Sequence record: PP418985.1
From: Escherichia phage UPWr_E1
Direction: 5' to 3' (one strand)
Length of the DNA stretch: 64,000 nt
Position 1 is the first letter of the stretch. Each line of letters opens with the position of its first letter. The translations under genes and the position numbers were made by a program. The notes beneath the pieces are model-generated. The model was not told the DNA's origin, made no database searches, and was given only the letters and a program-made list of their open reading frames with translations. Positions 3,059 through 64,000 of this stretch are shown piece after piece.

Positions 3059-3094
3059 AGCGAATAGCCTCACTCAATAAATACAGTATACAAA

Positions 3095-3102
3095 TATTTA
3101 TA
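3095..3102 (-). promoter_or_regulatory. T4-type late promoter TATAAATA (uvsW)
   Basis: tatttata on plus strand = TATAAATA on minus, 37 nt upstream of uvsW ATG. Confidence 0.55.
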
Positions 3103-3128
3103 CAAACACCCCCAATCAGGAGAATAAC

Positions 3129-6476: not shown

Positions 6477-6482
6477 TATTAT

Positions 6483-6502
6483 TGGTCGCCCTTCGGGGCG
6501 AC
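6483..6502 (+). other. stem-loop GGTCGCCC-TTCG-GGGCGACC between the two hoc-like genes (no T-run)
   Basis: perfect 8-bp stem with UUCG tetraloop; lies inside the ORF-track N-terminal extension of the next gene. Confidence 0.5.
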
Positions 6503-6520
6503 CTTAACGGAGTTATTTTT

Positions 6521-7753: not shown

Positions 7754-7764
7754 TGAAATCTATC

Positions 7765-7795
7765 AGCCATCCTTCGGGGTGGCTTTTTTGTTTTT
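7765..7795 (+). terminator. rho-independent terminator
   Basis: GCCATCC-TTCG-GGGTGGC followed by TTTTTTGTTTTT. Confidence 0.7.
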
Positions 7796-7800
7796 AGTGC

Positions 7801-7828
7801 TTGACAGTGTGATTTAGTGGCTTATAAT
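7801..7828 (+). promoter_or_regulatory. sigma70-type early promoter (TTGACA-16-TATAAT)
   Basis: consensus -35 and -10 hexamers directly after the terminator; leader ACACACATC resembles the repeated leader of the 49-64 kb modules. Confidence 0.6.
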
Positions 7829-7948
7829 GACACACATCAACAGGGCGTTACCCTATGAGGAAAATATTATGAATATGGGGTTGAAAATGGCTTTAATAAC
7901 TGTTACTGTCCTATTCGTTGTTGTGTTTATGAATGTATGAGGTGAAGT

Positions 7949-8146: not shown

Positions 8147-8421
8147 TGGACAAGAAAACAGCGTTAATGGTTTACATGCTACGCGAAGACCACGGTCTTA
8201 ATTTTGTTGATATTGCTAAAAAGATTGGCGGGTTCAGCGGACAAGATGCGGCTAAGGCATGGTTGATGGTAAAAGATGCACGAGAGGCTTACGCCAACCG
8301 TGAAAAGGTTGTTTATCGTAAACACCACATCAACAAAAAATTTAAAAATAAAGTTCAAAAACGTGTTGACAAGCCAAATAACACTGTTATAATGGACGCA
8401 TTCAAACGGGCAATGTCCTGA
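8146..8421 (+). CDS. basic hypothetical protein (possible HTH)
   Basis: ATGA start/stop overlap with upstream ORF; 91 aa, Lys-rich C-terminus. Confidence 0.5.
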   Translation: MDKKTALMVYMLREDHGLNFVDIAKKIGGFSGQDAAKAWLMVKDAREAYANREKVVYRKHHINKKFKNKVQKRVDKPNNTVIMDAFKRAMS

Positions 8422-8938: not shown

Positions 8939-8992
8939 GTATATATCATTAACATAATTTTAGTTTACATATGCACATTATTAATACAGTTT

Positions 8993-9030
8993 GATTAAAT
9001 TATGATCAAAACGAAGAAAGATCTTTAGAA
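8993..9030 (+). repeat. intergenic repeat copy A (GATTAAATTATGATCAAAACGAAGAAAGATCTTTAGAA)
   Basis: 5' 25 nt repeated at 9142-9166; 3' part CAAAACGAAGAAAGATCTTTAGAA identical to 46843-46866. Confidence 0.7.
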
Positions 9031-9141
9031 CATAGAAAATGTATCTTTGATTAATTATTAATCACCACATATTGTAACGCAAATGTTATACTCCGTAGGA
9101 GTTCGCGAAGCGATATCCTTTTGTGTAGTTTTTACATATAT

Positions 9142-9197
9142 GATTAAATTATGATCAAAACGAAGACTTATCTTATAGAATAATAAAAATTTGTTTC
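9142..9197 (+). repeat. intergenic repeat copy B
   Basis: GATTAAATTATGATCAAAACGAAGA ... TAGAATAATAAAAATTTGTTTCG; 3' 23 nt identical to 46862-46884. Confidence 0.7.
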
Positions 9198-9319
9198 GAA
9201 CATTTATTAATCAATTACTAGAAGTGTTTTATTGCTCGCTGTGCTCGCTTCCGCTACGCGGATACTTGTATTTGTTATTAACTTGTAGTATGATATTGCT
9301 TTCTATGGAGGAAAATATT

Positions 9320-20000: not shown

Positions 20001-20495
20001 TTATTCTACCCAATCGATAGCAAAAGTAACTTCAAACGTTTCAACTTCGTTGTTTTGTTCCCAATCGAGGGTTACTTCACCAACGTTGGTCGGGAAAATA
20101 CCGTACAATGTTTTTTCGCTAGTTGATTCGGTGTTACGGTTAAGTTGACGAACAATAGCTTGTTTCTTATATTGTGCAGGAGTTGCACCAGTGATCGCCG
20201 ATCCAGTACCATGTGTTTGATCGCTCCACGCAACGATAGCATCACGGATCTTGTGTGCGTCATCGTTGAATACAGTGATGGTCCAGTCGTCATATACACG
20301 GTCGCCAGCGATGTTAATTTTACGGTTTTGATAACCTACAGAGATTTTTTCTACGGTTGCAGCCGGGACAGTTGCCGCTTTACACATCAGCTTAAAGTTT
20401 TGCCCCAGATAAGGGATCTCAACTTCAAACAGGTTAGGACGAGCAAAATCGCCAGACTCGAAACCGCGTGTAATATCATTCAAATCGAGTGCCAT
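20001..20495 (-). CDS. 19: tail tube protein gp19
   Basis: 164 aa; FESGDFARPNLF, NRKINIAGDR, DDWTITVFNDDAH match recalled T4 gp19. Confidence 0.95.
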   Translation of the reverse strand: MALDLNDITRGFESGDFARPNLFEVEIPYLGQNFKLMCKAATVPAATVEKISVGYQNRKINIAGDRVYDDWTITVFNDDAHKIRDAIVAWSDQTHGTGSAITGATPAQYKKQAIVRQLNRNTESTSEKTLYGIFPTNVGEVTLDWEQNNEVETFEVTFAIDWVE

Positions 20496-20737
20496 AATTG
20501 ATATTCCTTAATAGAGCGGGGATTTTATCCCCGCTTGATTTAACTTTTAATCTATGCTAATTTACTGATTATGCCTGGTTAGCTGGACCGATAATTTCGT
20601 CAAAATCAGCACCAGTTGCAACAGCAGTGAAATTGAGCATGATATAGTTGATCGATTTTGCTGGTTTGATGAACATACTAGCAACAAATTCGTTACGATC
20701 AATTACATCCGGCGTGTTGTTCGTGGTGTCGCATTGT
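20465..20737. repeat. tandem duplication copy 1 (273 bp, identical to 20738-21010)
   Basis: contains the real gene 19 start and a displaced copy of the last 56 codons of gene 18. Confidence 0.9.
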
Positions 20738-21010
20738 CGCGTGTAATATCATTCAAATCGAGTGCCATAATTGATATTCCTTAATAGAGCGGGGATTTTA
20801 TCCCCGCTTGATTTAACTTTTAATCTATGCTAATTTACTGATTATGCCTGGTTAGCTGGACCGATAATTTCGTCAAAATCAGCACCAGTTGCAACAGCAG
20901 TGAAATTGAGCATGATATAGTTGATCGATTTTGCTGGTTTGATGAACATACTAGCAACAAATTCGTTACGATCAATTACATCCGGCGTGTTGTTCGTGGT
21001 GTCGCATTGT
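20738..21010. repeat. tandem duplication copy 2 (273 bp)
   Basis: contains the real gene 18 3' end and stop plus a second gene 19 start codon that runs into an out-of-frame stop after 21 codons. Confidence 0.9.
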
Positions 21011-35564: not shown

Positions 35565-35809
35565 TTTCTATCACTCCACATACCGAAAGTTGGATTATAC
35601 ACAAAATGTATAGCTTCATCAATAGTCTTGAATCGTTTGGTTACGTTAGCGCAATTAATACCCTCCCATAGTTCATCGGTGTAATCGGATAGTGATGAAT
35701 GAGTATGATCGATGATCTCTCCGATCTTTTCACCGTTCGCGATCACATCCCAACCGCAAGGGGATACCTGAATTGCTTCACAATTATCTGTAAATTTACG
35801 ACGTGCCAT
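35552..35809 (-). CDS. hypothetical protein (85 aa)
   Basis: GGAGGA RBS; first gene after the cassette promoter. Confidence 0.55.
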   Translation of the reverse strand: MARRKFTDNCEAIQVSPCGWDVIANGEKIGEIIDHTHSSLSDYTDELWEGINCANVTKRFKTIDEAIHFVYNPTFGMWSDRKWHA

Positions 35810-35838
35810 AATTTATCCTCCGTTGTTTAGATGTGAGC

Positions 35839-35866
35839 ATTATACCTTACCTGACAAGATTGTCAA
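35839..35866 (-). promoter_or_regulatory. sigma70-type early promoter (TTGACA-16-TATAAT) for the methyltransferase cassette
   Basis: consensus hexamers on minus strand inside the late baseplate gene cluster. Confidence 0.65.
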
Positions 35867-35876
35867 CACCCAAAAT

Positions 35877-35905
35877 GTAAAAAGCCAACTCTCTCGAATT
35901 GGCTT
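35877..35905 (-). terminator. rho-independent terminator after gene 8
   Basis: AAGCCAA-ttcgagagag-TTGGCTT followed by TTTT on minus strand. Confidence 0.6.
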
Positions 35906-35919
35906 TTAAAATCATACAC

Positions 35920-46772: not shown

Positions 46773-46842
46773 AAGAAGTCCTCGTATAGTACCCGTTTTA
46801 TTTATTACTGTATAAAAATATAGTTATTGGTTAAAACATAAC

Positions 46843-46884
46843 CAAAACGAAGAAAGATCTTTAGAATAATAAAAATTTGTTTCG
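46843..46884 (+). repeat. intergenic repeat copy C (CAAAACGAAGAAAGATCTTTAGAATAATAAAAATTTGTTTCG)
   Basis: joins the 3' parts of repeat copies A and B at 9.0-9.2 kb; contains the 10-bp palindrome AAAGATCTTT. Confidence 0.7.
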
Positions 46885-46961
46885 GTTAAAAAGTAGTCAG
46901 TGCCTACGGCACGTCGCAAAGCGACAATTGTTAATAAATATTTTCATTTGAGGAATCAGTA

Positions 46962-48510: not shown

Positions 48511-48975
48511 ATGACCCCGTTTCGAGAATCCGTTAAAGGTACATATGCGGCGGTTAAATTCACTGAGGATACACTAGACCGCATTGAAAAATTGCAGGAG
48601 TTCTACGACCTGCCTAATGCCGTTCCTCGTGATAAACTGCATAGTACTATCTTATATTCTCGTGTTTATGTTCCGTTTATCCCAGAAGAAGGGGAGAAGT
48701 TCTTAGGCTCTCTATGCCATCTGAAAGTGTTTGAAACTCAATCCGGTACTAATGCGCTTGTGCTGGCATTTGAAAGCGACTACATGCAATTCAGACACGA
48801 TATCGGCACTGCTTTAGGTGCGACGTGGGATTATCCTGAATATGTACCGCATATCACGCTTTCTTATGATGTTGGTGCGCGTAAATTTGGCACTGACCTA
48901 GAGTTCGATTTAGAGATTGTCCGATCTCATGAGTATGTCGAAGATCTAGATCTGGAGTGGACGACCAAACTGTAA
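48511..48975 (+). CDS. 57B: 57B-position protein with two H-x-[TS]-x motifs (2H phosphoesterase-like)
   Basis: GGAGG RBS then ATG 48511; HSTI and HITL motifs about 85 residues apart. Confidence 0.6.
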   Translation: MTPFRESVKGTYAAVKFTEDTLDRIEKLQEFYDLPNAVPRDKLHSTILYSRVYVPFIPEEGEKFLGSLCHLKVFETQSGTNALVLAFESDYMQFRHDIGTALGATWDYPEYVPHITLSYDVGARKFGTDLEFDLEIVRSHEYVEDLDLEWTTKL

Positions 48976-48982
48976 TTCTATA

Positions 48983-49007
48983 CCCCGAAAATTTTTCGGG
49001 GTTTTTT
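48983..49007 (+). terminator. rho-independent terminator
   Basis: CCCCGAAAA-t-TTTTCGGGG followed by TTTTTTG. Confidence 0.7.
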
Positions 49008-49018
49008 GTTTTTATGTG

Positions 49019-49047
49019 TTGACAACCATAAACGACTATAGCATAAT
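49019..49047 (+). promoter_or_regulatory. PeSL-like early promoter module 1
   Basis: TTGACA-17-CATAAT, then conserved leader CATATCGAAACGAAACACAC and RBS AGGAGAATCAAA. Confidence 0.6.
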
Positions 49048-49084
49048 GCACATATCGAAACGAAACACACTTAGGAGAATCAAA

Positions 49085-49462
49085 ATGATGATGATGTTTA
49101 AAGATAAATTCGAATGTCACTACACCCGTAACTTTGACTTAGTATCCCGCTACTACATTCATAAAGAAACTGGAACGCAAGTAGTTCTTGAATCTCACAG
49201 CGAAGTAGGATTCGATTCAACAAAAGTAGCAATTAGTGCTCGCTTCTGGGATAACGGCAAATTTGCTTATATCGCTTGGAACGACGACGAAAATGTAATT
49301 ACAGTAGCTTTCGGTGATGACTACTACACTAAAAAGACTTTCGATAGTAAGCCATCAAATGAATACCTGAAAGCGTATGTGCAGCACATGTTCCAACGTG
49401 TTCTGACCGGAATGGAAATCAATGTCATGAAAGACATTGTAGACGAAGTAAAATATTCTTAA
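49085..49462 (+). CDS. hypothetical protein (125 aa)
   Basis: ATG 49085 after the conserved leader RBS; ORF-track start 49016 lies inside the promoter. Confidence 0.6.
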   Translation: MMMMFKDKFECHYTRNFDLVSRYYIHKETGTQVVLESHSEVGFDSTKVAISARFWDNGKFAYIAWNDDENVITVAFGDDYYTKKTFDSKPSNEYLKAYVQHMFQRVLTGMEINVMKDIVDEVKYS

Positions 49463-49468
49463 AAATAG

Positions 49469-49497
49469 TTGACAACATGAAACGGGGGTAGTAAGAT
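49469..49497 (+). promoter_or_regulatory. PeSL-like early promoter module 2
   Basis: TTGACA-17-TAAGAT; hairpin GGGGG-tagtaagata-CCCCC spans the -10. Confidence 0.55.
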
Positions 49498-49528
49498 ACC
49501 CCCACAAACAAACGAAAGGAGAATCAAA

Positions 49529-49687
49529 ATGAAATTTATCGGTAAAACTTTTATGTTCGTAGCTGGTACTCTGTTTACTGCAACTCTGTTAGCTGGTGGC
49601 TTAGATATCTTTACTGCCTTTGAAACTTTCGGGTATACTGTAGCATCGGGTGCTCTCTTCGGATTGGGTTTAGCGATTAGCAAATAA
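49529..49687 (+). CDS. small membrane protein (52 aa)
   Basis: AGGAGAATCAAA RBS; hydrophobic; below ORF-track cutoff. Confidence 0.5.
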   Translation: MKFIGKTFMFVAGTLFTATLLAGGLDIFTAFETFGYTVASGALFGLGLAISK

Positions 49688-49696
49688 GGTGATAAT

Positions 49697-49900
49697 ATGG
49701 AATTGGATATGGTTAAAGCAAAATTTATGGGTAAGGATAAGAGCGGTAAAACATTTGTTATTAATAGAACATTGTTTCGCTCTGACCTTAAGTGGGTAAC
49801 ACAACAATTTGCGGAAGTCAACGAGGCAGTTGTGACATGCTTTGTTGATGATAAAAAAGTTTTTGAAATTGATCGTCGTGGGGTGTCTAATGATCACTAA
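49697..49900 (+). CDS. hypothetical protein (67 aa)
   Basis: AAGGTGA RBS. Confidence 0.5.
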   Translation: MELDMVKAKFMGKDKSGKTFVINRTLFRSDLKWVTQQFAEVNEAVVTCFVDDKKVFEIDRRGVSNDH

Positions 49901-50087
49901 ACTGTTTAGCAATACTTTGTTTATGATTGCATTTGTTTTCTTTCTGTGTCTGATGATCGGTGTTGTTACAGTAGGTAGCTATTCCGGTGTTACCTTAGAT
50001 GATTTTTGCAAACTTGTTTTGATCTCGTTTATACCTAGTATTCTGCTCGCTTTATGTGGTGCTTTTAAATGGCTTTGTACGCTATGA
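49890..50087 (+). CDS. small membrane protein
   Basis: GGGGTG RBS then ATG 49890; hydrophobic. Confidence 0.45.
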   Translation: MITKLFSNTLFMIAFVFFLCLMIGVVTVGSYSGVTLDDFCKLVLISFIPSILLALCGAFKWLCTL

Positions 50088-50194
50088 ACGAAATAGAACG
50101 AATGATGTTGATAGGTGGACCTGAGTTCACTAAATTTGATGCAATTCTTATTGCGTTTGGTTTTCTTATGATCTTTTGTATGGTGGCGCTATGA
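50084..50194 (+). CDS. small membrane peptide (36 aa)
   Basis: ATGA overlaps on both sides (translational coupling). Confidence 0.35.
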   Translation: MNEIERMMLIGGPEFTKFDAILIAFGFLMIFCMVAL

Positions 50195-50415
50195 GTAGTA
50201 TAAAATATTTCGCTTTCTTGTGCTTTATGATGTTCTTTACATTCTTAGCATGTGTTTTCTTTACCTGGCTTGCTCATGTTGATAATGCAACCGGACCGTT
50301 TTACTTCTTCTGTGTATTGTCTGTGTTGACTGGTGCTTTTGTTACGTGGATGATTCGAGATTGTTACGGAATGTATAAGTTTGAAAAGACTCGACCGAAA
50401 TGGGGCAAACGATGA
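50191..50415 (+). CDS. small membrane protein
   Basis: GGTGG RBS; two hydrophobic segments. Confidence 0.5.
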   Translation: MSSIKYFAFLCFMMFFTFLACVFFTWLAHVDNATGPFYFFCVLSVLTGAFVTWMIRDCYGMYKFEKTRPKWGKR

Positions 50416-50594
50416 AATTATTTGCGTGGCTAATTATTTTAAATGTAATTGTTAAGACCTTTCTCGCTGGTCTGATGATGGCGCATAGCACCGAACCAGA
50501 AGAAGCATTAACGTATTTTGTTGCTTATGTGTTGGGATTCTTGCTTACTGCGTGGATGTGTGATGAATATCGAAGAATTGAGGTAAAACCATGA
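50412..50594 (+). CDS. small membrane protein
   Basis: ATGA overlap with upstream ORF. Confidence 0.5.
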   Translation: MKLFAWLIILNVIVKTFLAGLMMAHSTEPEEALTYFVAYVLGFLLTAWMCDEYRRIEVKP

Positions 50595-50809
50595 AAATGA
50601 CTTTTTATATCTTAGCAAGTATCATGCTTGTGATCTCTTCTGCACTATTTGCATTTCTTACCGTCTGGGGGATCTGTACTGATGCGAAGCCGTGGGATAT
50701 CGTAGAAAATGCGGTTATGTTCCTGATTAGTATCATGTGTCTTTTTGATGCCTTTGACTCTATAAAAGAAGAAGATCAAAAACGTCGCGAGAGAAAGCGA
50801 TATAAATAA
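50591..50809 (+). CDS. small membrane protein with basic C-terminus
   Basis: GAGGTAAAACC RBS; stop codon lies within a TATAAATA motif. Confidence 0.5.
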   Translation: MKMTFYILASIMLVISSALFAFLTVWGICTDAKPWDIVENAVMFLISIMCLFDAFDSIKEEDQKRRERKRYK

Positions 50810-50814
50810 TAGTG

Positions 50815-50984
50815 AACTAAAGACAGCGCGGTTAGAATGATTTGGACGTCACCTAGCCGCATTTATTACAGCGTATGGGATTGATCCGGTATGCTAAAGC
50901 ATTCACTTGCTAGGCCGCTAGCAGGTTGGAGACAAGGAAGATTCGCTACCTTCCCTATAAGCCACTCTTCGGAGTGGCTTTTTT
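50815..50984 (+). ncRNA. candidate small RNA (about 170 nt, no ORF)
   Basis: TATAAATA at 50801-50808 upstream, internal hairpins, ends at a strong terminator; no ORF longer than 15 codons; not tRNA-like. Confidence 0.25.
50961..50984 (+). terminator. rho-independent terminator
   Basis: GCCACTC-TTCG-GAGTGGC followed by TTTTTT. Confidence 0.75.
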
Positions 50985-51011
50985 ATTGCCTAAAATTTTT
51001 TAAAAAAGTTG

Positions 51012-51040
51012 TTGACTCCAGGTCCAGCCTATAGCATAAT
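51012..51040 (+). promoter_or_regulatory. PeSL-like early promoter module 3
   Basis: A-tract, TTGACT-17-CATAAT, leader ACACACATCGAAACGAAACACAC. Confidence 0.6.
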
Positions 51041-51086
51041 ACACACATCGAAACGAAACACACTTTCTTAAACGGAGAATCAAATT

Positions 51087-51272
51087 ATGGCACGTCGCAT
51101 CACTAAAGCACTGAAAGCAGTAAGCAAAGAAAACGTAGTAGCTATTCTGGTAATCTGGGGTTATAACGAAGAATCCGCTAAACAGAAAGTTGAAGCAGGG
51201 TTTGAGATGGCAGTAAAAGCAATGCCGAATGATGACTCTGTAGGGCTGGCAAATTATATCGCATATTTCTGA
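51087..51272 (+). CDS. hypothetical protein (61 aa)
   Basis: leader RBS GGAGAATCAAA. Confidence 0.55.
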   Translation: MARRITKALKAVSKENVVAILVIWGYNEESAKQKVEAGFEMAVKAMPNDDSVGLANYIAYF

Positions 51273-51281
51273 TAAAAAGTG

Positions 51282-51312
51282 TTGACAGGGGAGGATAAAC
51301 TCCCCTACAATA
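51282..51312 (+). promoter_or_regulatory. PeSL-like early promoter module 4
   Basis: TTGACA-18-TACAAT; hairpin GGGGAG-gataaa-CTCCCC in the spacer. Confidence 0.55.
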
Positions 51313-51340
51313 CAACCATCAACGAAACGGGAGAATCAAA

Positions 51341-51562
51341 ATGATTAACTTTAAAGACGCAGCAAAAGAAATTATCGACTTTGAGCGCGAACTGTTTGAA
51401 ATGGAACCTAATATGAGTAAACTGGAACTGGCTAACCAGATCTGGTGCTCTAAAATGAATCCAGCAGACCGCTTAGAAGTTGTGAACATCGTAGGTGAAG
51501 TGAAAGGTAGTGCATTAATGAAACTCCGCGCTTGTCACGCTTACATTGCTGATCAACTGTGA
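51341..51562 (+). CDS. hypothetical protein (73 aa)
   Basis: leader RBS GGGAGAATCAAA. Confidence 0.55.
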   Translation: MINFKDAAKEIIDFERELFEMEPNMSKLELANQIWCSKMNPADRLEVVNIVGEVKGSALMKLRACHAYIADQL

Positions 51563-51572
51563 GGGATATATC

Positions 51573-51767
51573 ATGGGAGATAAACCATTAGTACAACTAA
51601 GAGTACGCTATAACCAGATTTTAGCATTACTTAAAGCTGAGGGTGTAGATCCATCGGACCGCGAGGCTGTAAAAGCGTGTCTATCTGATACGGTACAACC
51701 AAAGCATAATTTTGCTTGTTATATGTACTTTTACAGTAGGTTGAATAGACCGTTTGAGTTTGAATAA
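51573..51767 (+). CDS. hypothetical protein (64 aa)
   Basis: GAGGGA RBS then ATG 51573. Confidence 0.5.
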   Translation: MGDKPLVQLRVRYNQILALLKAEGVDPSDREAVKACLSDTVQPKHNFACYMYFYSRLNRPFEFE

Positions 51768-51789
51768 CGTTAAGTGTTGAGGTGATACT

Positions 51790-51990
51790 ATGGATATTAA
51801 AGAGCAACTTGTATTAGTTCGAGAATCGGCTAAAGACCACGGCATGAGCGAAGAATTTGTTGAATGGTTTATTGATAACAAATTCAATCCAAGCCCAAAT
51901 TCGACTTTTAACTATTTGGCTATGTCCATTATGTGGGAAGGTTGGAAAGGCGCGGTAGAAACTGCCTTAAAAATTATGAAAAAAGACTAA
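51790..51990 (+). CDS. hypothetical protein (66 aa)
   Basis: GAGGTGA RBS. Confidence 0.5.
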   Translation: MDIKEQLVLVRESAKDHGMSEEFVEWFIDNKFNPSPNSTFNYLAMSIMWEGWKGAVETALKIMKKD

Positions 51991-51997
51991 AAAGTTG

Positions 51998-52026
51998 TTG
52001 ACACGCGAGAGGGTGTATAGCATAAT
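51998..52026 (+). promoter_or_regulatory. PeSL-like early promoter module 5
   Basis: TTGACA-17-CATAAT; hairpin GGGTGTA-tagcataa-TACACCC over the -10; leader CATCGAAACGAAACACAC. Confidence 0.6.
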
Positions 52027-52064
52027 ACACCCATCGAAACGAAACACACTAAGGAGTATCAAAA

Positions 52065-52391
52065 ATGAAACCAGTATCTGTTAAAGTTATCTTCTCTGAA
52101 TCTTCTGTATTCGCTAACGCAAACGAAGTATTCCACTTCGAAGACTTCGAGCGTAAAGCACAGGACGCGGCAGCAAAAGCCTATGAAAGCGAATATGACA
52201 AAACTCAAATCGAGGTTACTTTCGAAAACGGCACTACTTACGCTTGCCGCCTTGACCTGGGTGATCGTCTGTCTGGCTTCCGTCACCATGTAGAGAAGAC
52301 AATCGCTTTCTCTAAAACCGAAAAAGGAAAACACTACTTTTCTGTATTCGGTACTGAAAATCTGGATTTCTTGAAAACTGTTTCTTTCTAA
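52065..52391 (+). CDS. hypothetical protein (108 aa)
   Basis: leader RBS AAGGAGTATCAAAA. Confidence 0.6.
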   Translation: MKPVSVKVIFSESSVFANANEVFHFEDFERKAQDAAAKAYESEYDKTQIEVTFENGTTYACRLDLGDRLSGFRHHVEKTIAFSKTEKGKHYFSVFGTENLDFLKTVSF

Positions 52392-52583: not shown

Positions 52584-52781
52584 ATGACGATCAAGAATAT
52601 GTTTTTCAACTTCGTAGGTGCTTCCATTCTTTCAATGCTATATCTTGTGATTGTATGGATGGGCGACTATGAATTAACTAACGATGAAAATCTGACAGTG
52701 TTTACTGTCTTGACGATGATCATTTACACTGTCTTTCTTGTCTTGGATTTTATTGTGTTTCTTTACAAAACGGTGACTTGA
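52584..52781 (+). CDS. small membrane protein
   Basis: hydrophobic 65 aa. Confidence 0.5.
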   Translation: MTIKNMFFNFVGASILSMLYLVIVWMGDYELTNDENLTVFTVLTMIIYTVFLVLDFIVFLYKTVT

Positions 52782-52978
52782 TGACGATTAGGAAAAATGA
52801 TATTGGTTTTGTTGCGGGTATCGCTAGCGTCTTTACTGTTGTTATTTTGCTAATGCTTTTACCCGGTGTATTCTCTGACCAGATTGAATTGTATATAGCT
52901 TTTATCTGTTGCATTTATACTTGGTTTGCAATGTTTGTGATTAGTCTAATTATGCAATTCGTAGTTAACAAATTTTAA
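52778..52978 (+). CDS. small membrane protein
   Basis: ATGA overlap with upstream ORF; hydrophobic 66 aa. Confidence 0.5.
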   Translation: MMTIRKNDIGFVAGIASVFTVVILLMLLPGVFSDQIELYIAFICCIYTWFAMFVISLIMQFVVNKF

Positions 52979-52999
52979 ATTTAATGTGAGGATTATATT

Positions 53000-57108: not shown

Positions 57109-57350
57109 AATATGTAATTGCACCTTATAGTAACCGCAAGTATATTACACCGAATACACTGTATGAATATACACCACATGAAAGATTTGCGAATAGTGGT
57201 TATATCCGTGATGATAAGGGACACCAGATTTTTATTTGCCTCAAAAATTGTGCACACTTAGACGGTCGAACATGGACACTGGTCGAAGAACCAAAACAAC
57301 CTGAGAATAAAGGTCTTTGGAACGCAATTAAAAAATTCTTGAAAAAGTAG
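57105..57350 (+). CDS. small protein, paralog family member 2
   Basis: ATGA overlap; TLYEYTP ... KNCAHLDGRTWTLV. Confidence 0.5.
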   Translation: MKYVIAPYSNRKYITPNTLYEYTPHERFANSGYIRDDKGHQIFICLKNCAHLDGRTWTLVEEPKQPENKGLWNAIKKFLKK

Positions 57351-57379
57351 TTGACACACATGTTCGGGGGTAGTAATAT
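57351..57379 (+). promoter_or_regulatory. PeSL-like early promoter module 6
   Basis: TTGACA-17-TAATAT; hairpin GGGGG-tagtaatata-CCCCC; leader CATCGAAACAACAAAGGAG. Confidence 0.55.
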
Positions 57380-57410
57380 ACCCCCATCGAAACAACAAAG
57401 GAGTATTAAA

Positions 57411-57749
57411 ATGAGTGTTAAAGAAGTATTTGTTTATACTGACTATGACGGGTGCGCCTATCTCACTGCCGGAAAACTTTACCATTGTGAGATTATTCAT
57501 GGTACGCTAGGTCGAATTATGTGCGATCCGATTACAAAATTGTGGAAAAACAATCCTAGTGAGCGAGAAACTATTATTAACCTAGATTCAGACGGTTGTT
57601 CACATTTGGACTATAGAAAATGGCATATCGTGACACATGATGCTTATGGTATTCATCTTGCTACTAAAGAATTAACTATAGAGAAATTCAAGTTTAAAGA
57701 AATCCCGTTTGTATACTGGCTTCGCAATTTGTTTAAGAAAGGAGAATAA
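57411..57749 (+). CDS. small protein, paralog family member 3 (duplicated module)
   Basis: KLYHCE ... SDGCSHLDYRKWHIV. Confidence 0.5.
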   Translation: MSVKEVFVYTDYDGCAYLTAGKLYHCEIIHGTLGRIMCDPITKLWKNNPSERETIINLDSDGCSHLDYRKWHIVTHDAYGIHLATKELTIEKFKFKEIPFVYWLRNLFKKGE

Positions 57750-57750
57750 A

Positions 57751-58173
57751 ATGGAAACAATTAACGTACATGTTCGCCGTAGCAAGCTGCGCAGATTCTT
57801 CGAAACTGAAATGCGTAAGACTAACGCACAAATCAAAGAAAAGTGCTTGAATAATGGTTACGGTGAGTATATTTTCATTCGCTTTAGTCCGCATATGATC
57901 GACCGTCTAACCGACCGCCATATCGATGAACATAAGACAATGGAACTATTCAATAAGGTAGAAACTCGTTTGCCGGAGATCTTCGACTTCCTGAAAATGG
58001 AAGACCGACCTAATCGATTAGAAATCACTGACGGTAACATGTGGATCGGGATGACAGTAGACCTAATTGAAGACGGTAAGCCATATCACGGTCTATGCTG
58101 TCGAATGATTATAGAGAATCCAAAACGACTGGCGGGTAAAATGTCGGCTGTTGTTTTGAAAGTGGACCAATAA
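57751..58173 (+). CDS. hypothetical protein (140 aa)
   Basis: GGAGAA RBS then ATG 57751. Confidence 0.55.
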   Translation: METINVHVRRSKLRRFFETEMRKTNAQIKEKCLNNGYGEYIFIRFSPHMIDRLTDRHIDEHKTMELFNKVETRLPEIFDFLKMEDRPNRLEITDGNMWIGMTVDLIEDGKPYHGLCCRMIIENPKRLAGKMSAVVLKVDQ

Positions 58174-59231: not shown

Positions 59232-59687
59232 ATGATTATTGATACTGTAAAGGGCGATCTCATCGCCCTGTTTAAACAAGGAAACGGTCATTTAATTCAT
59301 GGTTGTAATTGTTTTCATACTATGGGCGCTGGTATTGCTGCAAAGATCGCGAAAGAGTTCCCGCAAGCGTTAGAGATTGACAAGCAAACTTCTCGCGGTA
59401 AGGTAGAAAAGCTGGGTGGGTTTAGTGTCTGGACGCATCAAGTTAATGGTTATAACTGGTGCGGGGTGAATCTCTATACCCAATTCCGACCGGGTCCAAA
59501 TGCTGAATATGGTGCTATCCTGAAAGGATTTGAGACTATCAATGATGTTTTTGAAGGTGCTATACAGCCTTTCTATATTCCTAAAATCGGTTGCGGTATC
59601 GGTGGCCTTGAGTGGGAATGTGTAGAAGAGATCATTAATATTGCTACTCCAGACATTAACATTGTGGTGGTTGAATATGACAAATAA
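59232..59687 (+). CDS. macro-domain-like protein (putative ADP-ribose binding/processing)
   Basis: LIHGCNCFHTMGAGIAAKI and IPKIGCGIGGL resemble macro-domain motifs (VNAAN..GGGV.GAI and P.IG.G..G); tentative. Confidence 0.4.
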   Translation: MIIDTVKGDLIALFKQGNGHLIHGCNCFHTMGAGIAAKIAKEFPQALEIDKQTSRGKVEKLGGFSVWTHQVNGYNWCGVNLYTQFRPGPNAEYGAILKGFETINDVFEGAIQPFYIPKIGCGIGGLEWECVEEIINIATPDINIVVVEYDK

Positions 59688-59871
59688 AAATGATCTATAT
59701 TCCGGTGATTGGGTGAAACGTCAGTCTGTAGAAAACGTAACTTGTTTTCGTTGTTTCACTGAATACAATATAAAAACCGCTCCTGTTAGTGTTCCAAAGA
59801 CAGACGGGTATTATATTAAAGAACCGCATTGCCCTAAATGTAAATGTCGATTATATTGGAGTCATCTATGA
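59677..59871 (+). CDS. small zinc-ribbon-like protein
   Basis: CFRC ... CPKCKC; ATG 59677. Confidence 0.45.
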   Translation: MTNKNDLYSGDWVKRQSVENVTCFRCFTEYNIKTAPVSVPKTDGYYIKEPHCPKCKCRLYWSHL

Positions 59872-60086
59872 AGAAGCCTAATACCGCTCACATGAAAGAA
59901 AACTGCCGATGTGTTAGATGTGGTTGGCCTATCATCTTCACTTGCTGTAACGACGATATGCAGCGTTTACCGTGGGGAATGTGGGATTGGTGGATGTATT
60001 GTAGCAATAAAGGATGCCTCCACCACGAAGGCGAAGGAGTATTTCAGGAAACGCCTGATTGGGTGGAGGTGATAGAAAATGCTTGA
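59868..60086 (+). CDS. small Cys-rich protein
   Basis: GGAG RBS then ATG 59868; CRCVRCGW ... CC ... C..KGC. Confidence 0.45.
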   Translation: MKKPNTAHMKENCRCVRCGWPIIFTCCNDDMQRLPWGMWDWWMYCSNKGCLHHEGEGVFQETPDWVEVIENA

Positions 60087-61745: not shown

Positions 61746-63893
61746 ATGCCAGCAGAAATTAAAAACACTACAATTAACTCACAAATTTGGCTTCCTCATA
61801 CTTTTGAATGTTCTATTGTTGCTGAGTCGGAAGACCCAGAGAAAAGACGAAAAGGTTATTTGTGGAAAAAGAATGATAAGTTGATCACCATGACAGATGG
61901 TCCATCTTTTCCACTAAAATCTGTTAAAGAGGAAGATAAAACAGGTTGGTCTGTTAATGTTCGTGGTTTTGCTCAAGATGATGAAAATCTTTCTGGCGAA
62001 TCCGTAGATATCGGCACGGAAAACTTCACCTTTGAACTTTTTGATAATCCATATGTGGAACATGTATACCCGCCGACGTCTTTTAATATTGGTGATGAAA
62101 TCAAGGCAAAAATTGTTTTCCGTAGTCATATCCAGCCTAATATTTCGGTTGACCTTTATTATAATGATGGTTTGGTTGATTCCGTTGATGGTGATCTGGG
62201 GTTAGACCATCGTGAATTTAAAATTGCAAAATTCGCGTGGCCTGAATTTTCCGGTACATATAAAATGGAATTGAGTGATGAACATGGTGAGGTTAAATTT
62301 GTATATCCTTTCTATGCAAACATCACTGAAAATAAGGAAGTATTCAACGTACAAAAATATGCACCTGCCTATTTTACCGTAGATGACGATGCACCGAATC
62401 AGGCGGAATATACTATTGTCCGATATCGACTAGAGCGTAATGATGGTAGTTTGGTTTATGAGTCTAAAGATAAGACTTTGTATGTAACTAAACATGCTCA
62501 AGAGTCTGACGCCGGAGAATATGTTGCTTTTGTTCGTGCATATAAGGTTGTTAATGGTCCTGGTGCTGGGACCGAATATGTGGATGGTGAAAAACATCGA
62601 TTCACAGTTAACGTAAAAGAAAACGAATTTTTTAGCCGTGATTTTAGTGCTATTGATTTTCGTTATCCTTCTGGATCTACTGTAAACCTTGATATGCCAG
62701 TGATGCAAGCCGATAGCTCATGGAATCGTCATTATGGTATGCTTACTAACAACGTTTACTTTACGTGGATGCTTGGCGGTAAGAAACTACAAAGTAAAAA
62801 ATATGGCGATGAGGGTTATGACCGGATAACGCTATCTGGATTGCAATATGATAACAGCGTTGCGCTTCAATTGTTGGTTGCTCCTGCCAATCCAGCGGGT
62901 GAACAGGTGATTCCTAACGGTCGCCCATTATTTTATGATCGTCGTATGCTTGAGATTTATGATAAAGAGTATGATTATCGTAATATTGAAGTGGGTGAAC
63001 CTATTGTTCTCAAGATCGTAGATCCTGAACCGCCAGCTAGTGATGATCCTGAACAAACGCGAACTTTGGTTATCACCAAAAACGACGTTAAAGTAACGGA
63101 ACTTCCGCTAGGTACTAAGGAATATAAGATCACCGACTCTGCGGACAGAGACCATAACGGCATCTGGGCGCATGAATATCGTGATAGTCCGAGTAAAGAT
63201 CCATTTAGCGCACATACTGATTTTGATATTGCTGGTCGTTCGACCTATCATGTTGAAGTAGTGCCGAATATGGAGTTTGACGGTCCTCATCCGGTACAGG
63301 TTACGGAAGGTGATACCCTGACGCTAGAAGCAACCATGCTAAAACCGCCAGCCTCATATGTTCCGACTTATGAGTTTAGTAAAAACGGTGTTAAACTGGA
63401 CATGGAGGACTCACGAAGTCCGATTTACCGTAAAGCAAACGTTACGCTAGAGGATGCTGGTGTTTATCGATTTGTTGCATTTGCTGATAAAAACAGCAAC
63501 GATGAACTAGATCCTGGCGAGATTGTCGGGTATACAAAATATGTTCAGGTTGTAGTTAATAAACGTCCTGTGCGACCGGATGAACCTAGACCGGAAGTTA
63601 AAATTGTTACTATGTTTAACGAGTTTAGCAAAGGCCGATTTAGTCCGTGTCCGTATTGGGTGATTGATGAGCTTGTCGAATTGATGGAAGACCCGCATGG
63701 TTGGATGGATAAACTTGAAGATTCTGTCTACTATGACTGGCAAATCACTATCTTTAATGAGTTCCTAAAAGGTAAGGATTTGTATCTTCAAGATTCGTGT
63801 AATGGTTATTGGGCGATTGTCCGCCAGAAGGATATGTCTATTGAAACTGGCTATGGGCGATTCAAACACTACTATACAAATGGACGTGAATAA
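61746..63893 (+). CDS. large Hoc-like protein: Ig/beta-sandwich repeats plus Hoc-type C-terminal domain
   Basis: GGGGGG RBS; GEYVAFVRAYKV and GVYRFVAFAD Ig-like motifs; C-terminal PYWVIDELVEL...DSCNGYWAIV resembles the C-termini of 3933..6476 and 6521..7753. Confidence 0.6.
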   Translation: MPAEIKNTTINSQIWLPHTFECSIVAESEDPEKRRKGYLWKKNDKLITMTDGPSFPLKSVKEEDKTGWSVNVRGFAQDDENLSGESVDIGTENFTFELFDNPYVEHVYPPTSFNIGDEIKAKIVFRSHIQPNISVDLYYNDGLVDSVDGDLGLDHREFKIAKFAWPEFSGTYKMELSDEHGEVKFVYPFYANITENKEVFNVQKYAPAYFTVDDDAPNQAEYTIVRYRLERNDGSLVYESKDKTLYVTKHAQESDAGEYVAFVRAYKVVNGPGAGTEYVDGEKHRFTVNVKENEFFSRDFSAIDFRYPSGSTVNLDMPVMQADSSWNRHYGMLTNNVYFTWMLGGKKLQSKKYGDEGYDRITLSGLQYDNSVALQLLVAPANPAGEQVIPNGRPLFYDRRMLEIYDKEYDYRNIEVGEPIVLKIVDPEPPASDDPEQTRTLVITKNDVKVTELPLGTKEYKITDSADRDHNGIWAHEYRDSPSKDPFSAHTDFDIAGRSTYHVEVVPNMEFDGPHPVQVTEGDTLTLEATMLKPPASYVPTYEFSKNGVKLDMEDSRSPIYRKANVTLEDAGVYRFVAFADKNSNDELDPGEIVGYTKYVQVVVNKRPVRPDEPRPEVKIVTMFNEFSKGRFSPCPYWVIDELVELMEDPHGWMDKLEDSVYYDWQITIFNEFLKGKDLYLQDSCNGYWAIVRQKDMSIETGYGRFKHYYTNGRE

Positions 63894-63906
63894 AATATAA
63901 TCAAAA

Positions 63907-63930
63907 GCCATCCGAAAGGGTGGCTTTTTT
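63907..63930 (+). terminator. rho-independent terminator
   Basis: GCCATCC-gaaa-GGGTGGC followed by TTTTTTCG. Confidence 0.75.
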
Positions 63931-63942
63931 CGTTTTTAGGTG

Positions 63943-63971
63943 TTGACAACCGGAATAGGGTATAGCATAAT
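63943..63971 (+). promoter_or_regulatory. PeSL-like early promoter module 7 (gene start lies beyond window end)
   Basis: TTGACA-17-CATAAT, then leader CACACATCGACAACAAAGGAGAATCAAA. Confidence 0.6.
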
Positions 63972-64000
63972 GCACACATCGACAACAAAGGAGAATCAAA

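What the first reader, a model, noticed from the sequence alone, without database searches (positions are those of the whole stretch)
48983..52026. Repeated terminator - early promoter - conserved leader modules (PeSL-like) flanking accessory genes
At least eight copies share one architecture: a UUCG/GNRA-loop terminator, an A-tract, TTGACA with a 17-18 nt spacer often forming a GC hairpin over the -10 (TAGCATAAT, TAGTAAGAT, TACAAT), then the leader CATCGAAACGAAACACAC and RBS GGAGAATCAAA before the ATG. Copies lie at 7765-7868, 48983-49084, 49469-49528, 50961-51086, 51282-51340, 51998-52064, 57351-57410 and 63907-64000; the cassette promoter at 35839-35866 is related. Such dispersed promoter stem-loop repeats have been proposed to mediate modular shuffling of novel ORFs in T4-type genomes, and here they bracket nearly every accessory gene block.
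Basis: partly seen in the sequence, partly recalled or inferred. Interest (0 to 1): 0.65.

Follow-up and report, generated by a model that had tools for sequence, protein, structure and literature searches.

The report
Known phage early promoter-terminator cassettes (PeSLs)
The repeated terminator-promoter-leader modules are real, but they are the already described "PeSL" early-promoter cassettes of RB49-type (Krischvirus) T4-like coliphages. The one addition is that their leader motif, and two of the small genes they flank, also occur in unrelated T1-like phages.

Summary
Observation confirmed. All eight listed copies, plus the minus-strand copy at 35866-35839, are present at the stated coordinates. 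Each has a near-consensus sigma-70 promoter and a stable stem-loop (-12.8 to -16.6 kcal/mol). Most also have a CATCGAAAC-type leader and the 11-nt RBS GGAGAATCAAA, both far above chance.

Interpretation supported but not new. The window is a Krischvirus (95-97% identical to RB49, JSE and G2494), the genus in which PeSLs were defined (Arbiol et al. 2010). Eight of the nine sites, all but 7765, are orthologous to RB49 early promoters predicted by Nolan et al. 2006.

"Brackets nearly every accessory block" is overstated. Two of the transcription units are 5-6 kb long and include conserved T4-type genes. Within the genus, most indels here are homing-endonuclease insertions or internal deletions, not module-to-module events. 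One clear PeSL-type insertion exists, in phage Skers inside module 51998.

Additions from this work:
- The RBS matches the RegB/S1 cleavage consensus at 10 of 11 positions.
- The +1 leader ATCGAAACGA also follows the -10 of promoters in Drexlerviridae (T1-like siphoviruses).
- Module 50961 resembles T7 promoter A1 (37/51 identical).
- Two module-flanked cassettes (51087-51272 and 51338-51772) have 72-82% DNA homologs in Drexlerviridae.

The parts
7762..7871 (+). Module m7765, a loose member. UUCG-loop terminator 7765-7784, -35 TTGACA 7801-7806, -10 TATAAT 7823-7828 (16-nt spacer), then GAGGAAAATATT and an ATG at 7869 that opens a 24-codon hydrophobic ORF.
   Evidence: Conserved in RB49. Not recovered by the leave-one-out HMM.
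48982..49087 (+). Module m48983. Terminator 48982-49002, -35 49019-49024, -10 CATAAT 49042-49047, leader TATCGAAACGAAACACAC 49053-49070, RBS GGAGAATCAAA 49074-49084, ATG 49085 (RB49 ORF125 homolog).
   Evidence: Orthologous to RB49 Pe:60694.
49457..49531 (+). Module m49469. A-tract, -35 49469-49474, hairpin GGGGGTAGTAAGATACCCCC lying over the -10 TAAGAT 49492-49497, CA-rich leader, RBS 49518-49528, ATG 49529.
   Evidence: (family D8). Orthologous to RB49 Pe:60244. Shares TTGACAACATGAA and TAAGAT with T7 A2/A3.
50810..50958 (+). Structured, conserved non-coding stretch between the stop of the ORF118 homolog and the 50959 terminator. Likely a 3'-UTR or small-RNA element. It lies next to the module but is not part of the repeat family.
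   Evidence: Fold z-score -3.95. No Rfam family reaches its threshold. 96-98% conserved and found only in Krischvirus. Variation is confined to one hairpin tip.
50959..51089 (+). Module m50961. UUCG terminator 50959-50980, A/T tract, -35 TTGACT 51012-51017, -10 CATAAT 51035-51040, leader CATCGAAACGAAACACAC 51046-51063, RBS 51074-51084, ATG 51087 (DUF7421 gene).
   Evidence: Orthologous to RB49 Pe:58699. 37/51 identical to T7 A1. The spacer, -10 and leader align with Hanrivervirus promoters.
51270..51343 (+). Module m51282. A-tract, -35 51282-51287, hairpin GGGGAGGATAAACTCCCC in the 18-nt spacer, -10 TACAAT 51306-51311, leader CATCAACGAAAC, RBS 51330-51340, ATG 51341.
   Evidence: Leave-one-out E = 0.05. 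Orthologous to RB49 Pe:58430.
51986..52067 (+). Module m51998. A-tract, -35 51998-52003, hairpin GGGTGTATAGCATAATACACCC over the -10 CATAAT 52021-52026, leader 52032-52049, RBS GGAGTATCAAA 52053-52063, ATG 52065 (LPD25-domain gene).
   Evidence: Orthologous to RB49 Pe:57746. Phage Skers has a 48-codon ORF cassette inserted in this leader.
57339..57413 (+). Module m57351. A-tract, -35 57351-57356, hairpin GGGGGTAGTAATATACCCCC over the -10 TAATAT 57374-57379, leader CATCGAAACAACAAA, RBS GGAGTATTAAA, ATG 57411. This is the first gene of the unit that contains regB.
   Evidence: (family D8). Orthologous to RB49 Pe:52389.
63903..64000 (+). Module m63907. GAAA-loop terminator 63903-63928, -35 63943-63948, -10 CATAAT 63966-63971, leader CATCGACAACAAA, RBS 63990-64000. 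Cut off by the end of the window.
   Evidence: Orthologous to RB49 Pe:47746. Lies about 50 nt downstream of the right edge of the 61838-63854 presence/absence polymorphism.
35806..35908 (-). Minus-strand module. Terminator, -35 TTGACA 35866-35861, -10 TATAAT 35844-35839, leader CACATCTAAACAAC, RBS GGAGGATAAAT at 35821, ATG 35809.
   Evidence: The only extra hit of the 8-copy HMM in the window (E = 8.6e-5). Also. Orthologous to RB49 Pe:73830(+).

Best explanation
These are the early-gene regulatory cassettes (PeSLs) of a Krischvirus genome. Each one ends the upstream transcript at a GC-rich stem-loop. In five copies this is a canonical intrinsic terminator; in four it is a hairpin in the spacer or over the -10. 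Each then restarts transcription from a near-consensus host sigma-70 promoter, so every downstream block of small early genes is strongly expressed and insulated from its neighbours.

The predicted start is the A of cATCGAAAC, 7 nt after the -10. This gives an unstructured A/C-rich 5' leader that ends in the 11-nt RBS GGAGAATCAAA. That RBS very probably doubles as a target for the phage's own RegB endoribonuclease acting with ribosomal protein S1, so the first cistron is switched off soon after infection.

Because 50-100 nt of near-identical sequence is repeated in one orientation, the copies also give the phage recombination machinery patches of homology. This occasionally inserts, deletes or swaps the flanked genes.

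What is shown and what is inferred:
- Shown here: the anatomy, the copy statistics, orthology to RB49 sites, one insertion inside a module, and the cross-family homologies.
- Shown in the literature for other RB49/phi1 PeSLs: promoter and terminator activity, and mini-circles.
- Inferred: the transcription start, RegB cleavage, and the recombination mechanism.
For: Anatomy and statistics.

Identity of the genome.

Orthology to predicted RB49 early promoters. [quoted passage not shown]

PeSL definition, lacZ reporter tests of promoter and terminator function, and mini-circles: PMC2839356.

Genome-wide in the complete Krischvirus genome OZ035808.1:
- The HMM built from the 8 window copies hits 41 sites at E <= 0.01, 40 of them on one strand.
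- CATCGAAAC occurs 16 times against 1.25 expected, 11 of them directly after a -10.
- GGAGAATCAAA occurs 22 times against 0.15 expected.

RegB link:
- The consensus is GGAGRAYARAA (PMC1702504), and the module RBS matches it at 10 of 11 positions.
- Matches with at most 1 mismatch number 15 against 6.0 +/- 2.4 expected. They include 5 module RBSs, the 35866(-) RBS, and a perfect GGAGAATAAAA at the regB start itself.
- The RB49 regB SD is reported to be cleaved by RegB in vivo (PMC3014915).
- GGAG(A/T)AT(C/T)AAA occurs only at the first cistron after a module and at regB itself (GGAGAATAAAA); other internal genes use other SDs.

Recombination:
- Skers carries an extra ORF inserted inside the m51998 leader, with CATCGAAAC at both junctions.
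- Cross-family homology blocks end at module edges.
Against: - No transcript data exist for this phage. The start site, termination and RegB cleavage are all inferred.
- The four hairpins without a U-tract are not canonical terminators.
- Position 8 of the RBS is C, where the RegB consensus strongly prefers A.
- Two modules have GGAGT (T at position 5), and m7765 has GGAA, a sequence the paper reports as very poorly cut.
- Among the relatives compared base by base (seven for 44-64 kb; RB49 alone for the hoc locus), none of the indels has both ends in modules, and only one has an end within about 60 nt of a module. The rest are homing-endonuclease insertions, a deletion between tandem paralogs, and internal deletions.
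- All the modules checked against relatives (the seven in 44-64 kb in seven relatives; m7765 and m35866 in RB49) are conserved in place, so shuffling at these particular sites is rare.
Confidence: 0.9

Rival explanations
1. The modules are purely regulatory signals. Their mutual similarity comes from selection for the strongest host-RNAP promoter, a good initial transcribed sequence and a good RBS, not from mobility. They play no special part in gene shuffling.
For: - With the hexamers, SD and ATG masked, only 2-9 bits of similarity remain.
- The same +1 motif follows the -10 in unrelated phages whose upstream halves differ. T7 A1 also starts ATCGA. This looks like convergence on a functional optimum.
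- Indels within the genus in this window are mostly unrelated to modules.
Against: - The Skers cassette is inserted exactly within a module leader, with the motif repeated at both junctions.
- Two module-flanked cassettes have 72-82% DNA homologs in Drexlerviridae, with block ends at the ATG or leader and at the stop codon.
- PeSL mini-circles were shown by inverse PCR in RB49 and phi1.
- Direct-repeat families 64-69 nt long at 61-81% identity are longer than function alone would require.
Confidence: 0.3
2. The conserved 11-nt GGAGAATCAAA is simply an optimal Shine-Dalgarno sequence with an A-rich spacer, kept uniform by gene conversion among the repeats. It has nothing to do with RegB.
For: - Position 8 is C, against the RegB consensus.
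- A-rich spacers are generally favourable for translation (general knowledge).
- The motif sits at a fixed distance from the ATG.
Against: - 22 exact copies in one genome against 0.15 expected is far more uniform than SD function needs.
- The phage encodes regB, and its own SD in this window is the perfect T4 consensus GGAGAATAAAA.
- Apart from regB, whose own SD is the perfect consensus, the motif is restricted to promoter-proximal cistrons, as expected for early shut-off targets.
Confidence: 0.35
3. The resemblance among the copies is a chance clustering of generic promoter-like hexamers in AT-rich intergenic DNA.
For: Promoter-like matches are common. There are 88 in 19.5 kb against 59.5 expected, and the strict pattern TTGACN-N16-18-TANNNT gives 24 against 10.6 expected.
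Against: - Leave-one-out E-values reach 1e-13.
- Motif counts are 9 against 1.8 and 3 against 0.07.
- 40 of 41 genome-wide HMM hits lie on one strand.
- Every checked copy is conserved in relatives.
Confidence: 0.01

Closest known systems
PeSLs (promoter-early stem-loops) of coliphages RB49 and phi1 (Arbiol, Comeau, Kutateladze, Adamia and Krisch 2010, PMC2839356; extended to other T4-likes by Comeau et al. 2014, PMC4122927)
   Same: - Same genus.
- Same architecture: upstream stop codon, AT-rich tract, near-consensus TTGACA-N17-TATAAT promoter, G(n)-loop-C(n) stem-loop in variable positions, SD and ATG.
- Same strand bias and the same location in hyperplastic regions.
- Orthologous positions in RB49.
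   Different: Nothing essential differs. Three points are not discussed in those papers as far as I could read them:
- The match of the RBS to the RegB/S1 site (the 2010 paper has no mention of RegB).
- The +1 leader motif shared with Drexlerviridae.
[quoted passage not shown]
RB49 early promoters predicted by Nolan et al. 2006 (PMC1524935, Additional file 3)
   Same: Eight of the nine sites correspond one to one with listed promoters Pe:60694, 60244, 58699, 58430, 57746, 52389, 47746 and 73830(+). The RB49-specific features reported there (T or C at -12, C-rich -3 to -1) match CATAAT and ACACAC here.
   Different: That list treats them as promoters only, without the terminator, leader or RBS context. 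The m7765 equivalent is not listed, while the 8366 site (Pe:98401) is.
T7 early E. coli-RNAP promoters A1, A2 and A3
   Same: - T7 A1 and m50961 are 37/51 identical from the -35 to +15 (0 of 2000 shuffles reach this). They share TTGACT, CCTATAG-ATA-T and the annotated start ATCGA.
- A2 and A3 share TTGACAACATGAA with m49469; A2 also shares the -10 TAAGAT.
- A3 starts ATGAAACGA.
   Different: - The T7 promoters are three tandem sites at the genome end. They are not dispersed cassettes with stem-loops and an adjacent RBS.
- The A2 and A3 similarities are not significant over the whole length.
- Common descent versus convergence is undecided.
RegB/S1 target sites of T4 early mRNAs (Durand et al. 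2006, PMC1702504)
   Same: An 11-nt site that begins with GGA, has G at position 4 and an A-rich tail, overlaps the SD of early genes, and occurs in a phage that encodes regB.
   Different: C at position 8 instead of A. Cleavage was not tested for these sites.
Promoter modules of Drexlerviridae (T1-like siphoviruses): AATAGCAC-N5-TTGCTAAA, hairpin, TATAGT, N5, CATCGAAACGA
   Same: - The same +1 leader at the same distance from the -10.
- Often a GC hairpin in the spacer.
- They precede small early ORFs, some of which are homologs of window genes.
   Different: - A different -35 half, with its own conserved AATAGCAC box.
- No GGAGAATCAAA RBS (0 copies).
- A different virus family.
- I found no paper describing these modules; one literature search found none, which does not prove absence.
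Morons (Hendrix et al. 2000) and integron cassettes
   Same: A single gene carrying its own promoter and terminator, inserted between resident genes (discussion).
   Different: - Morons have no conserved flanking repeats.
- Integrons use an integrase and attC sites. No recombinase is associated with these modules.

Membership tests
PeSL (Arbiol et al. 2010) | Near-consensus sigma-70 promoter (TTGACA, about 17 nt, TATAAT-like) | tested here: met
   All nine copies score 10-12 of 12 with a 16-18 nt spacer.
PeSL (Arbiol et al. 2010) | Stable stem-loop, typically G(n)-loop-C(n), in one of several positions relative to the promoter | tested here: met
   -12.8 to -16.6 kcal/mol in all nine. Five lie upstream of the -35, one in the spacer, and three over the -10.
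PeSL (Arbiol et al. 2010) | Intergenic position: upstream stop codon, AT-rich tract, and an SD plus start codon at the 3' end | tested here: met
   Each copy lies between an ORF stop and an ATG 40-75 nt after the -10.
PeSL (Arbiol et al. 2010) | Many dispersed copies, mostly on the early strand in hyperplastic regions of a T4-type genome | tested here: met
   Nine in the window. 41 HMM hits, 40 on one strand, in a complete Krischvirus genome. The genome is a Krischvirus.
PeSL (Arbiol et al. 2010) | Promoter and terminator activity in vivo | not testable with these tools
   Shown by lacZ reporters for PeSL193/192, 206/205 and 211/210 of RB49/phi1 only, not for the copies in this window.
PeSL (Arbiol et al. 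2010) | Association with insertions, deletions or replacements between related phages | tested here: inconclusive
   - Seven relatives (44-64 kb; RB49 alone for the hoc locus): none of the indels has both ends in modules, and one end lies about 50 nt from m63907.
- One clear insertion inside m51998, in Skers.
- Cross-family blocks are bounded by modules.
- No formal enrichment test over all 59 genomes was run.
RegB/S1 target site (Durand et al. 2006) | GGA at positions 1-3 and G (rarely U) at position 4 | tested here: met
   GGAG in eight of the nine module RBSs. m7765 has GGAA.
RegB/S1 target site (Durand et al. 2006) | A-rich 7-nt tail fitting RAYARAA (A favoured at positions 6, 8, 10 and 11; no C at 9) | tested here: inconclusive
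   AATCAAA fits six of the seven tail positions, with C at position 8. Two copies have T at position 5.
RegB/S1 target site (Durand et al. 2006) | Site is single-stranded and is cleaved in a RegB- and S1-dependent way | not testable with these tools
   The leaders are A/C-rich and predicted to be unstructured, but no cleavage data exist. regB is present at 57751-58173.

The most novel reading that the evidence does not exclude
The 3' half of the module (the -10 flank, the +1 leader ATCGAAACGA and the RBS region) may be a linker sequence shared between virus families, not a Krischvirus-specific repeat. The same leader follows the -10 of promoters in at least four Drexlerviridae genera (Rogunavirus, Veterinaerplatzvirus, Hanrivervirus, Webervirus). 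Single examples were also seen in other T4-like genera and in a Pseudomonas phage.

In this reading the leader serves as the microhomology through which promoter-proximal small genes move between T4-like myoviruses and T1-like siphoviruses that co-infect E. coli. If so, PeSL-type shuffling would be an inter-family gene-exchange system.
Probability: 0.3. Interest if true: 0.55.

Novelty: already known. Interest (0 to 1): 0.2.

Why it matters
As stated, the finding re-discovers a published element class in the genus where it was described. Its main value is that it confirms reading the raw sequence can recover PeSLs.

Three by-products could matter if they hold up.

1. The uniform RBS GGAGAATCAAA occurs 22 times per genome and looks like a built-in RegB/S1 cleavage site. 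This would tie the cassettes to timed post-transcriptional shut-off, and it can be tested by primer extension.

2. The +1 leader motif is shared with T1-like phages and resembles T7 A1. This suggests either a common optimal initial transcribed sequence for strong phage promoters on enterobacterial RNA polymerase, or a common recombination linker.

3. Two module-flanked cassettes have recent DNA-level homologs in Drexlerviridae, and Skers carries a Drexler-type promoter inside a Krischvirus PeSL. These are concrete traces of gene flow between unrelated virulent coliphages.

Tried and rejected
- **Rfam and tRNA scans.** The gathering-threshold Rfam scan of the whole window and the ARAGORN scan found nothing. 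An E-value scan of 50780-51000 gave only sub-threshold hits driven by the terminator. The 150-nt structured stretch therefore remains unclassified.
- **Distant homologs of that stretch.** None were found for a covariation test. Only Krischvirus copies exist, at 96-98% identity.
- **Mosaic boundaries.** I looked for identity switches at modules. The sharp divergent block at 51790-51920 begins at a gene start and ends inside the gene, not at m51998. The block at 57130-57290 ends about 50 nt before m57351. This is suggestive at best.
- **The large polymorphisms.** I checked whether the hoc-locus replacement (3968-7208) or the 715-aa ORF polymorphism (61838-63854) are module-to-module events. They are not. 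The left ends lie inside ORFs.
- **The Skers extra ORF.** A protein-level search found no homolog in 50,697 phage records, so its donor is unknown. Only its 3' promoter flank matches Rogunavirus.
- **Desplats et al. [quoted passage not shown] I rely on the statement in Nolan et al. 2006.
- **T7 A2/A3 against module 49469.** Over the whole length the similarity is not significant (p about 0.06-0.09). Only the shared 13-mer TTGACAACATGAA stands out.
- **Searches not run.** I did not scan viral or metagenome contig collections for the leader, because a 14-16-mer would give many chance hits and no taxonomy. The 1504-record result (E <= 10, 46-nt chimeric query) is only indicative.

Full report
**1. 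What is in the sequence**

Reading 48800-52300 and the other listed sites shows the described architecture at every coordinate. There are eight plus-strand copies and one minus-strand copy (35866-35839).

Each has a -35 of TTGACA or TTGACT, a 16-18 nt spacer, and a -10 of CATAAT, TAAGAT, TACAAT, TAATAT or TATAAT. In an independent consensus scan these sites rank at the top, with 10-12 of 12 matches.

Every copy also carries a stable stem-loop of -12.8 to -16.6 kcal/mol. There are two kinds:
- Five are U-tailed intrinsic terminators upstream of the -35 (7765, 48982, 50959, 63903, 35866 minus strand).
- Four are GC hairpins without a U-tract, one in the spacer (51282) and three over the -10 (49469, 51998, 57351).

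**2. Is it more than chance?**

- GGAGAATCAAA with at most one mismatch occurs 9 times against 1.8 expected. Seven of these are at or beside a module: six module RBSs and the regB SD at 57741.
- The 18-nt leader with at most three mismatches occurs 3 times against 0.07 expected.
- The repeat finder links the copies in families of 32-69 nt at 61-86% identity.
- An HMM built from seven copies finds the eighth at E = 1e-6 to 5e-13 for six copies. It finds 51282 only marginally (E = 0.05) and does not find 7765. The 8-copy model finds the minus-strand copy at E = 8.6e-5.
- With the hexamers, SD and ATG masked, only 2-9 bits remain, around the -10 flank and leader, and nothing for 49469 and 51282.

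The similarity therefore goes beyond the generic hexamers, but not by much. It also falls into subfamilies:
- 48983, 50961, 51998 and 63907 share TATAGCATAATRCACAYATCGA.
- 49469 and 57351 share CGGGGGTAGTAAKATACCCCCA.
- 51282 stands alone, and 7765 is generic.

**3. What the genome is**

The region is 95-97% identical to about 58 Krischvirus genomes, including RB49, phi1, JSE, G2494 and Brandy. Gene order is the same: 57B, dmd, small membrane ORFs, 55.3, endolysin, nrdC.11, regB, vs, tk, rI.

PeSLs were defined in RB49 and phi1. There are about 51 per genome. Each combines a strong sigma-70-like promoter, an AT-rich upstream tract, a G(n)/C(n) stem-loop in one of five positions, and an SD plus ATG at the 3' end. 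They sit preferentially in hyperplastic regions. Reporter assays showed promoter and terminator activity, and inverse PCR showed mini-circles (PMC2839356).

Mapping through the RB49 locus shows that eight of the nine sites are the orthologs of early promoters already listed for RB49 by Nolan et al. 2006. The listed promoters are Pe:60694, 60244, 58699, 58430, 57746, 52389, 47746 and 73830(+). The ninth site, 7765, is conserved in RB49. Nolan et al. state that the RB49 early consensus agrees with 5'-end mapping by Desplats et al. 2002. I could not read that paper.

**4. Genome-wide behaviour**

In the complete Krischvirus genome OZ035808.1:
- The window-derived HMM hits 41 sites at E <= 0.01, 40 of them on one strand.
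- CATCGAAAC occurs 16 times against 1.25 expected, 11 of them directly after a -10.
- GGAGAATCAAA occurs 22 times against 0.15 expected.

**5. How it most likely works**

- *Termination and insulation.* These follow from the stem-loops. Five are canonical terminators. For the hairpin type I rely on the published test of one PeSL stem-loop.
- *Initiation.* Host RNA polymerase initiates because the hexamers are near-consensus. The start is most likely the A of cATCG, 7 nt after the -10. T7 A1, whose annotated start is the A of ccATCGAG, is 37/51 identical to module 50961 from the -35 to +15 (0 of 2000 shuffles reach this).
- *Leader.* It is A/C-rich and should be unstructured.
- *RBS and RegB.* The 11-nt RBS matches the RegB/S1 target consensus GGAGRAYARAA at 10 of 11 positions, with C instead of A at position 8 (PMC1702504). 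Matches to that consensus with at most one mismatch number 15 against 6.0 +/- 2.4 expected. They include five module RBSs, the minus-strand module RBS, and a perfect GGAGAATAAAA in front of regB itself. In RB49 the regB SD is GGAU and is reported to be cleaved in vivo. This SD type is seen only at the first cistron after a module and at regB itself.

I infer that the cassettes give strong early expression followed by RegB-mediated shut-off of the promoter-proximal gene. This step is inference only.

**6. The shuffling claim, tested within the genus**

I aligned the 44-64 kb part against seven relatives and the 1-12 kb part against RB49. The indels found were:
- Homing-endonuclease or AP2/HNH-type insertions at 46477/46485, 54968/54992 and 56157/56172.
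- Loss of one of two tandem 198-nt paralogs (52587-52985).
- A 190-nt deletion (59680-59873).
- Presence or absence of a 715-aa ORF (61838-63854). Its left end is inside the ORF and its right end is about 50 nt before module 63907.
- Replacement of the hoc locus (3968-7208).

None is a module-to-module event, and the modules themselves are conserved in place.

The exception is phage Skers, which has a 48-codon ORF inserted inside the leader of module 51998. CATCGAAAC is present at both junctions, and a second promoter-like element lies on the 3' side.

"Brackets nearly every accessory block" is also too strong. Two of the units are 5-6 kb long and contain conserved T4-type genes.

**7. An unexpected extension**

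*Shared cassettes.*
- The block 51338-51772 (two small ORFs between modules 51282 and 51998) is 79.7% identical to Rogunavirus BECP10 3035-3469.
- The single-gene cassette 51087-51272 (DUF7421, between modules 50961 and 51282) has 72-78% DNA homologs in more than 100 T1-like siphoviruses of the family Drexlerviridae.
- In Hanrivervirus PGN590 and pSf-1 the similarity continues upstream of the ATG through the leader CATCGAAACG, the -10 GCATAATA and part of the spacer. It stops at the stop codon, exactly where module 51282 begins in the window.

*Shared promoter leader.* Drexlerviridae promoters have their own -35 half (AATAGCAC-N5-TTGCTAAA), often a hairpin in the spacer, a TATAGT-type -10, and then the same CATCGAAACGA five to six nt later.
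- BECP10: 9 copies of the motif against 0.4 expected, 8 of them at such promoters.
- Veterinaerplatzvirus: 6 against 0.34, all at such promoters.
- Single examples occur in a Webervirus, a Klebsiella T4-like phage, Citrobacter phage Miller and a 66-kb Pseudomonas phage.

*The Skers insert.* Its 3' flank is a Drexler-type promoter (AAATAGCACTTTTTGTTAAAAC...TATAGT...CATCGAAAC) and matches Rogunavirus DNA.

*Two readings remain open.* The leader may be a convergent optimum for strong phage promoters, or it may be a shared linker that lets promoter-proximal genes move between families. [quoted passage not shown] One literature search found no description of the Drexlerviridae modules. This does not prove that none exists.

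**8. Verdict**

Novelty is "already known", and interest is low for the finding as stated. The RegB reading and the cross-family leader are leads, not results.

Noticed in passing
window 20465-21010: A perfect (100% identical) tandem duplication of 273 nt spans the junction between the tail sheath (gp18) 3' end and the tail tube (gp19) start. All 58 relatives have a single copy. Both genes stay intact, with about 346 nt of duplicated spacer between them. It could be a recent duplication or an assembly artefact.
   Followed up: partly
window 50810-50958: A 150-nt non-coding stretch lies between the last small membrane ORF and the 50959 terminator. It folds into four hairpins (z = -3.95), is nearly invariant in seven relatives except for one hairpin tip, and is found only in Krischvirus. 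No Rfam family matches. It is a candidate 3'-UTR element or small RNA.
   Followed up: partly
window 8992-9064, 9141-9213, 46828-46900: A second intergenic repeat family of 73 nt at 66-73% identity, unrelated to the PeSLs. Two of the three copies begin with TGATTAAATTATGATCA (the third with TGGTTAAAACATAACCA), and the reference copy ends in the palindrome TGATTAATTATTAATCA. The family is also present in RB49. It may be a protein-binding or regulatory element.
   Followed up: no
window 61746-63893: A 715-aa ORF with only a weak Ig_3 match is present here and in Brandy, SSG23 and JK32. It is replaced by about 70 nt in RB49, G2494, JSE, LF73P4 and OZ035808. Those phages keep the first 90 nt or so and the last 40 nt or so, so this is an internal deletion, not a cassette excision.
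   Followed up: partly
window 3933-7753: The hoc locus is expanded. An 847-aa ORF with at least four Ig-like domains sits next to a 423-aa Hoc-like protein. Most relatives, including RB49, have only about 1.4 kb here. Only SSG23, Brandy and G2248 share the long form, at about 90% identity.
   Followed up: partly
window 51790-51920: The N-terminal two-thirds of the gp55.3 homolog is more than 20% diverged from all seven relatives aligned; over 51341-51990, which contains it, no record exceeds 89% identity. The flanks are 2-5% diverged. The block starts at the gene start and ends inside the gene. This is an allele not represented in the phage collection.
   Followed up: partly
window 57741-57751: The regB Shine-Dalgarno sequence here is GGAGAATAAAA, the perfect T4 RegB/S1 consensus. 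RB49 has GGATAATAAAA at the same place.
   Followed up: yes
window 7869-7943: Directly after module 7765 there is a 24-codon hydrophobic ORF (MNMGLKMALITVTVLFVVVFMNV). It is conserved in RB49 but not annotated there.
   Followed up: no
window 52584-52978: Two tandem paralogous ORFs of about 198 nt. SSG23 and JSE keep only one, which looks like unequal recombination between the paralogs.
   Followed up: partly
window 46477/46485, 54968/54992, 56157/56172: Three empty sites where relatives (JSE, JK32, LF73P4, OZ035808) carry homing-endonuclease or AP2/HNH-type genes. At two of them (46485 and 56157) an elevated-divergence tract lies next to the site, consistent with co-conversion.
   Followed up: partly
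window 8366-8393: A perfect extended consensus promoter (TTGACA, 16 nt, TG-TATAAT) inside the 3' end of an ORF and upstream of the 8468 gene. It is orthologous to RB49 Pe:98401.
   Followed up: partly
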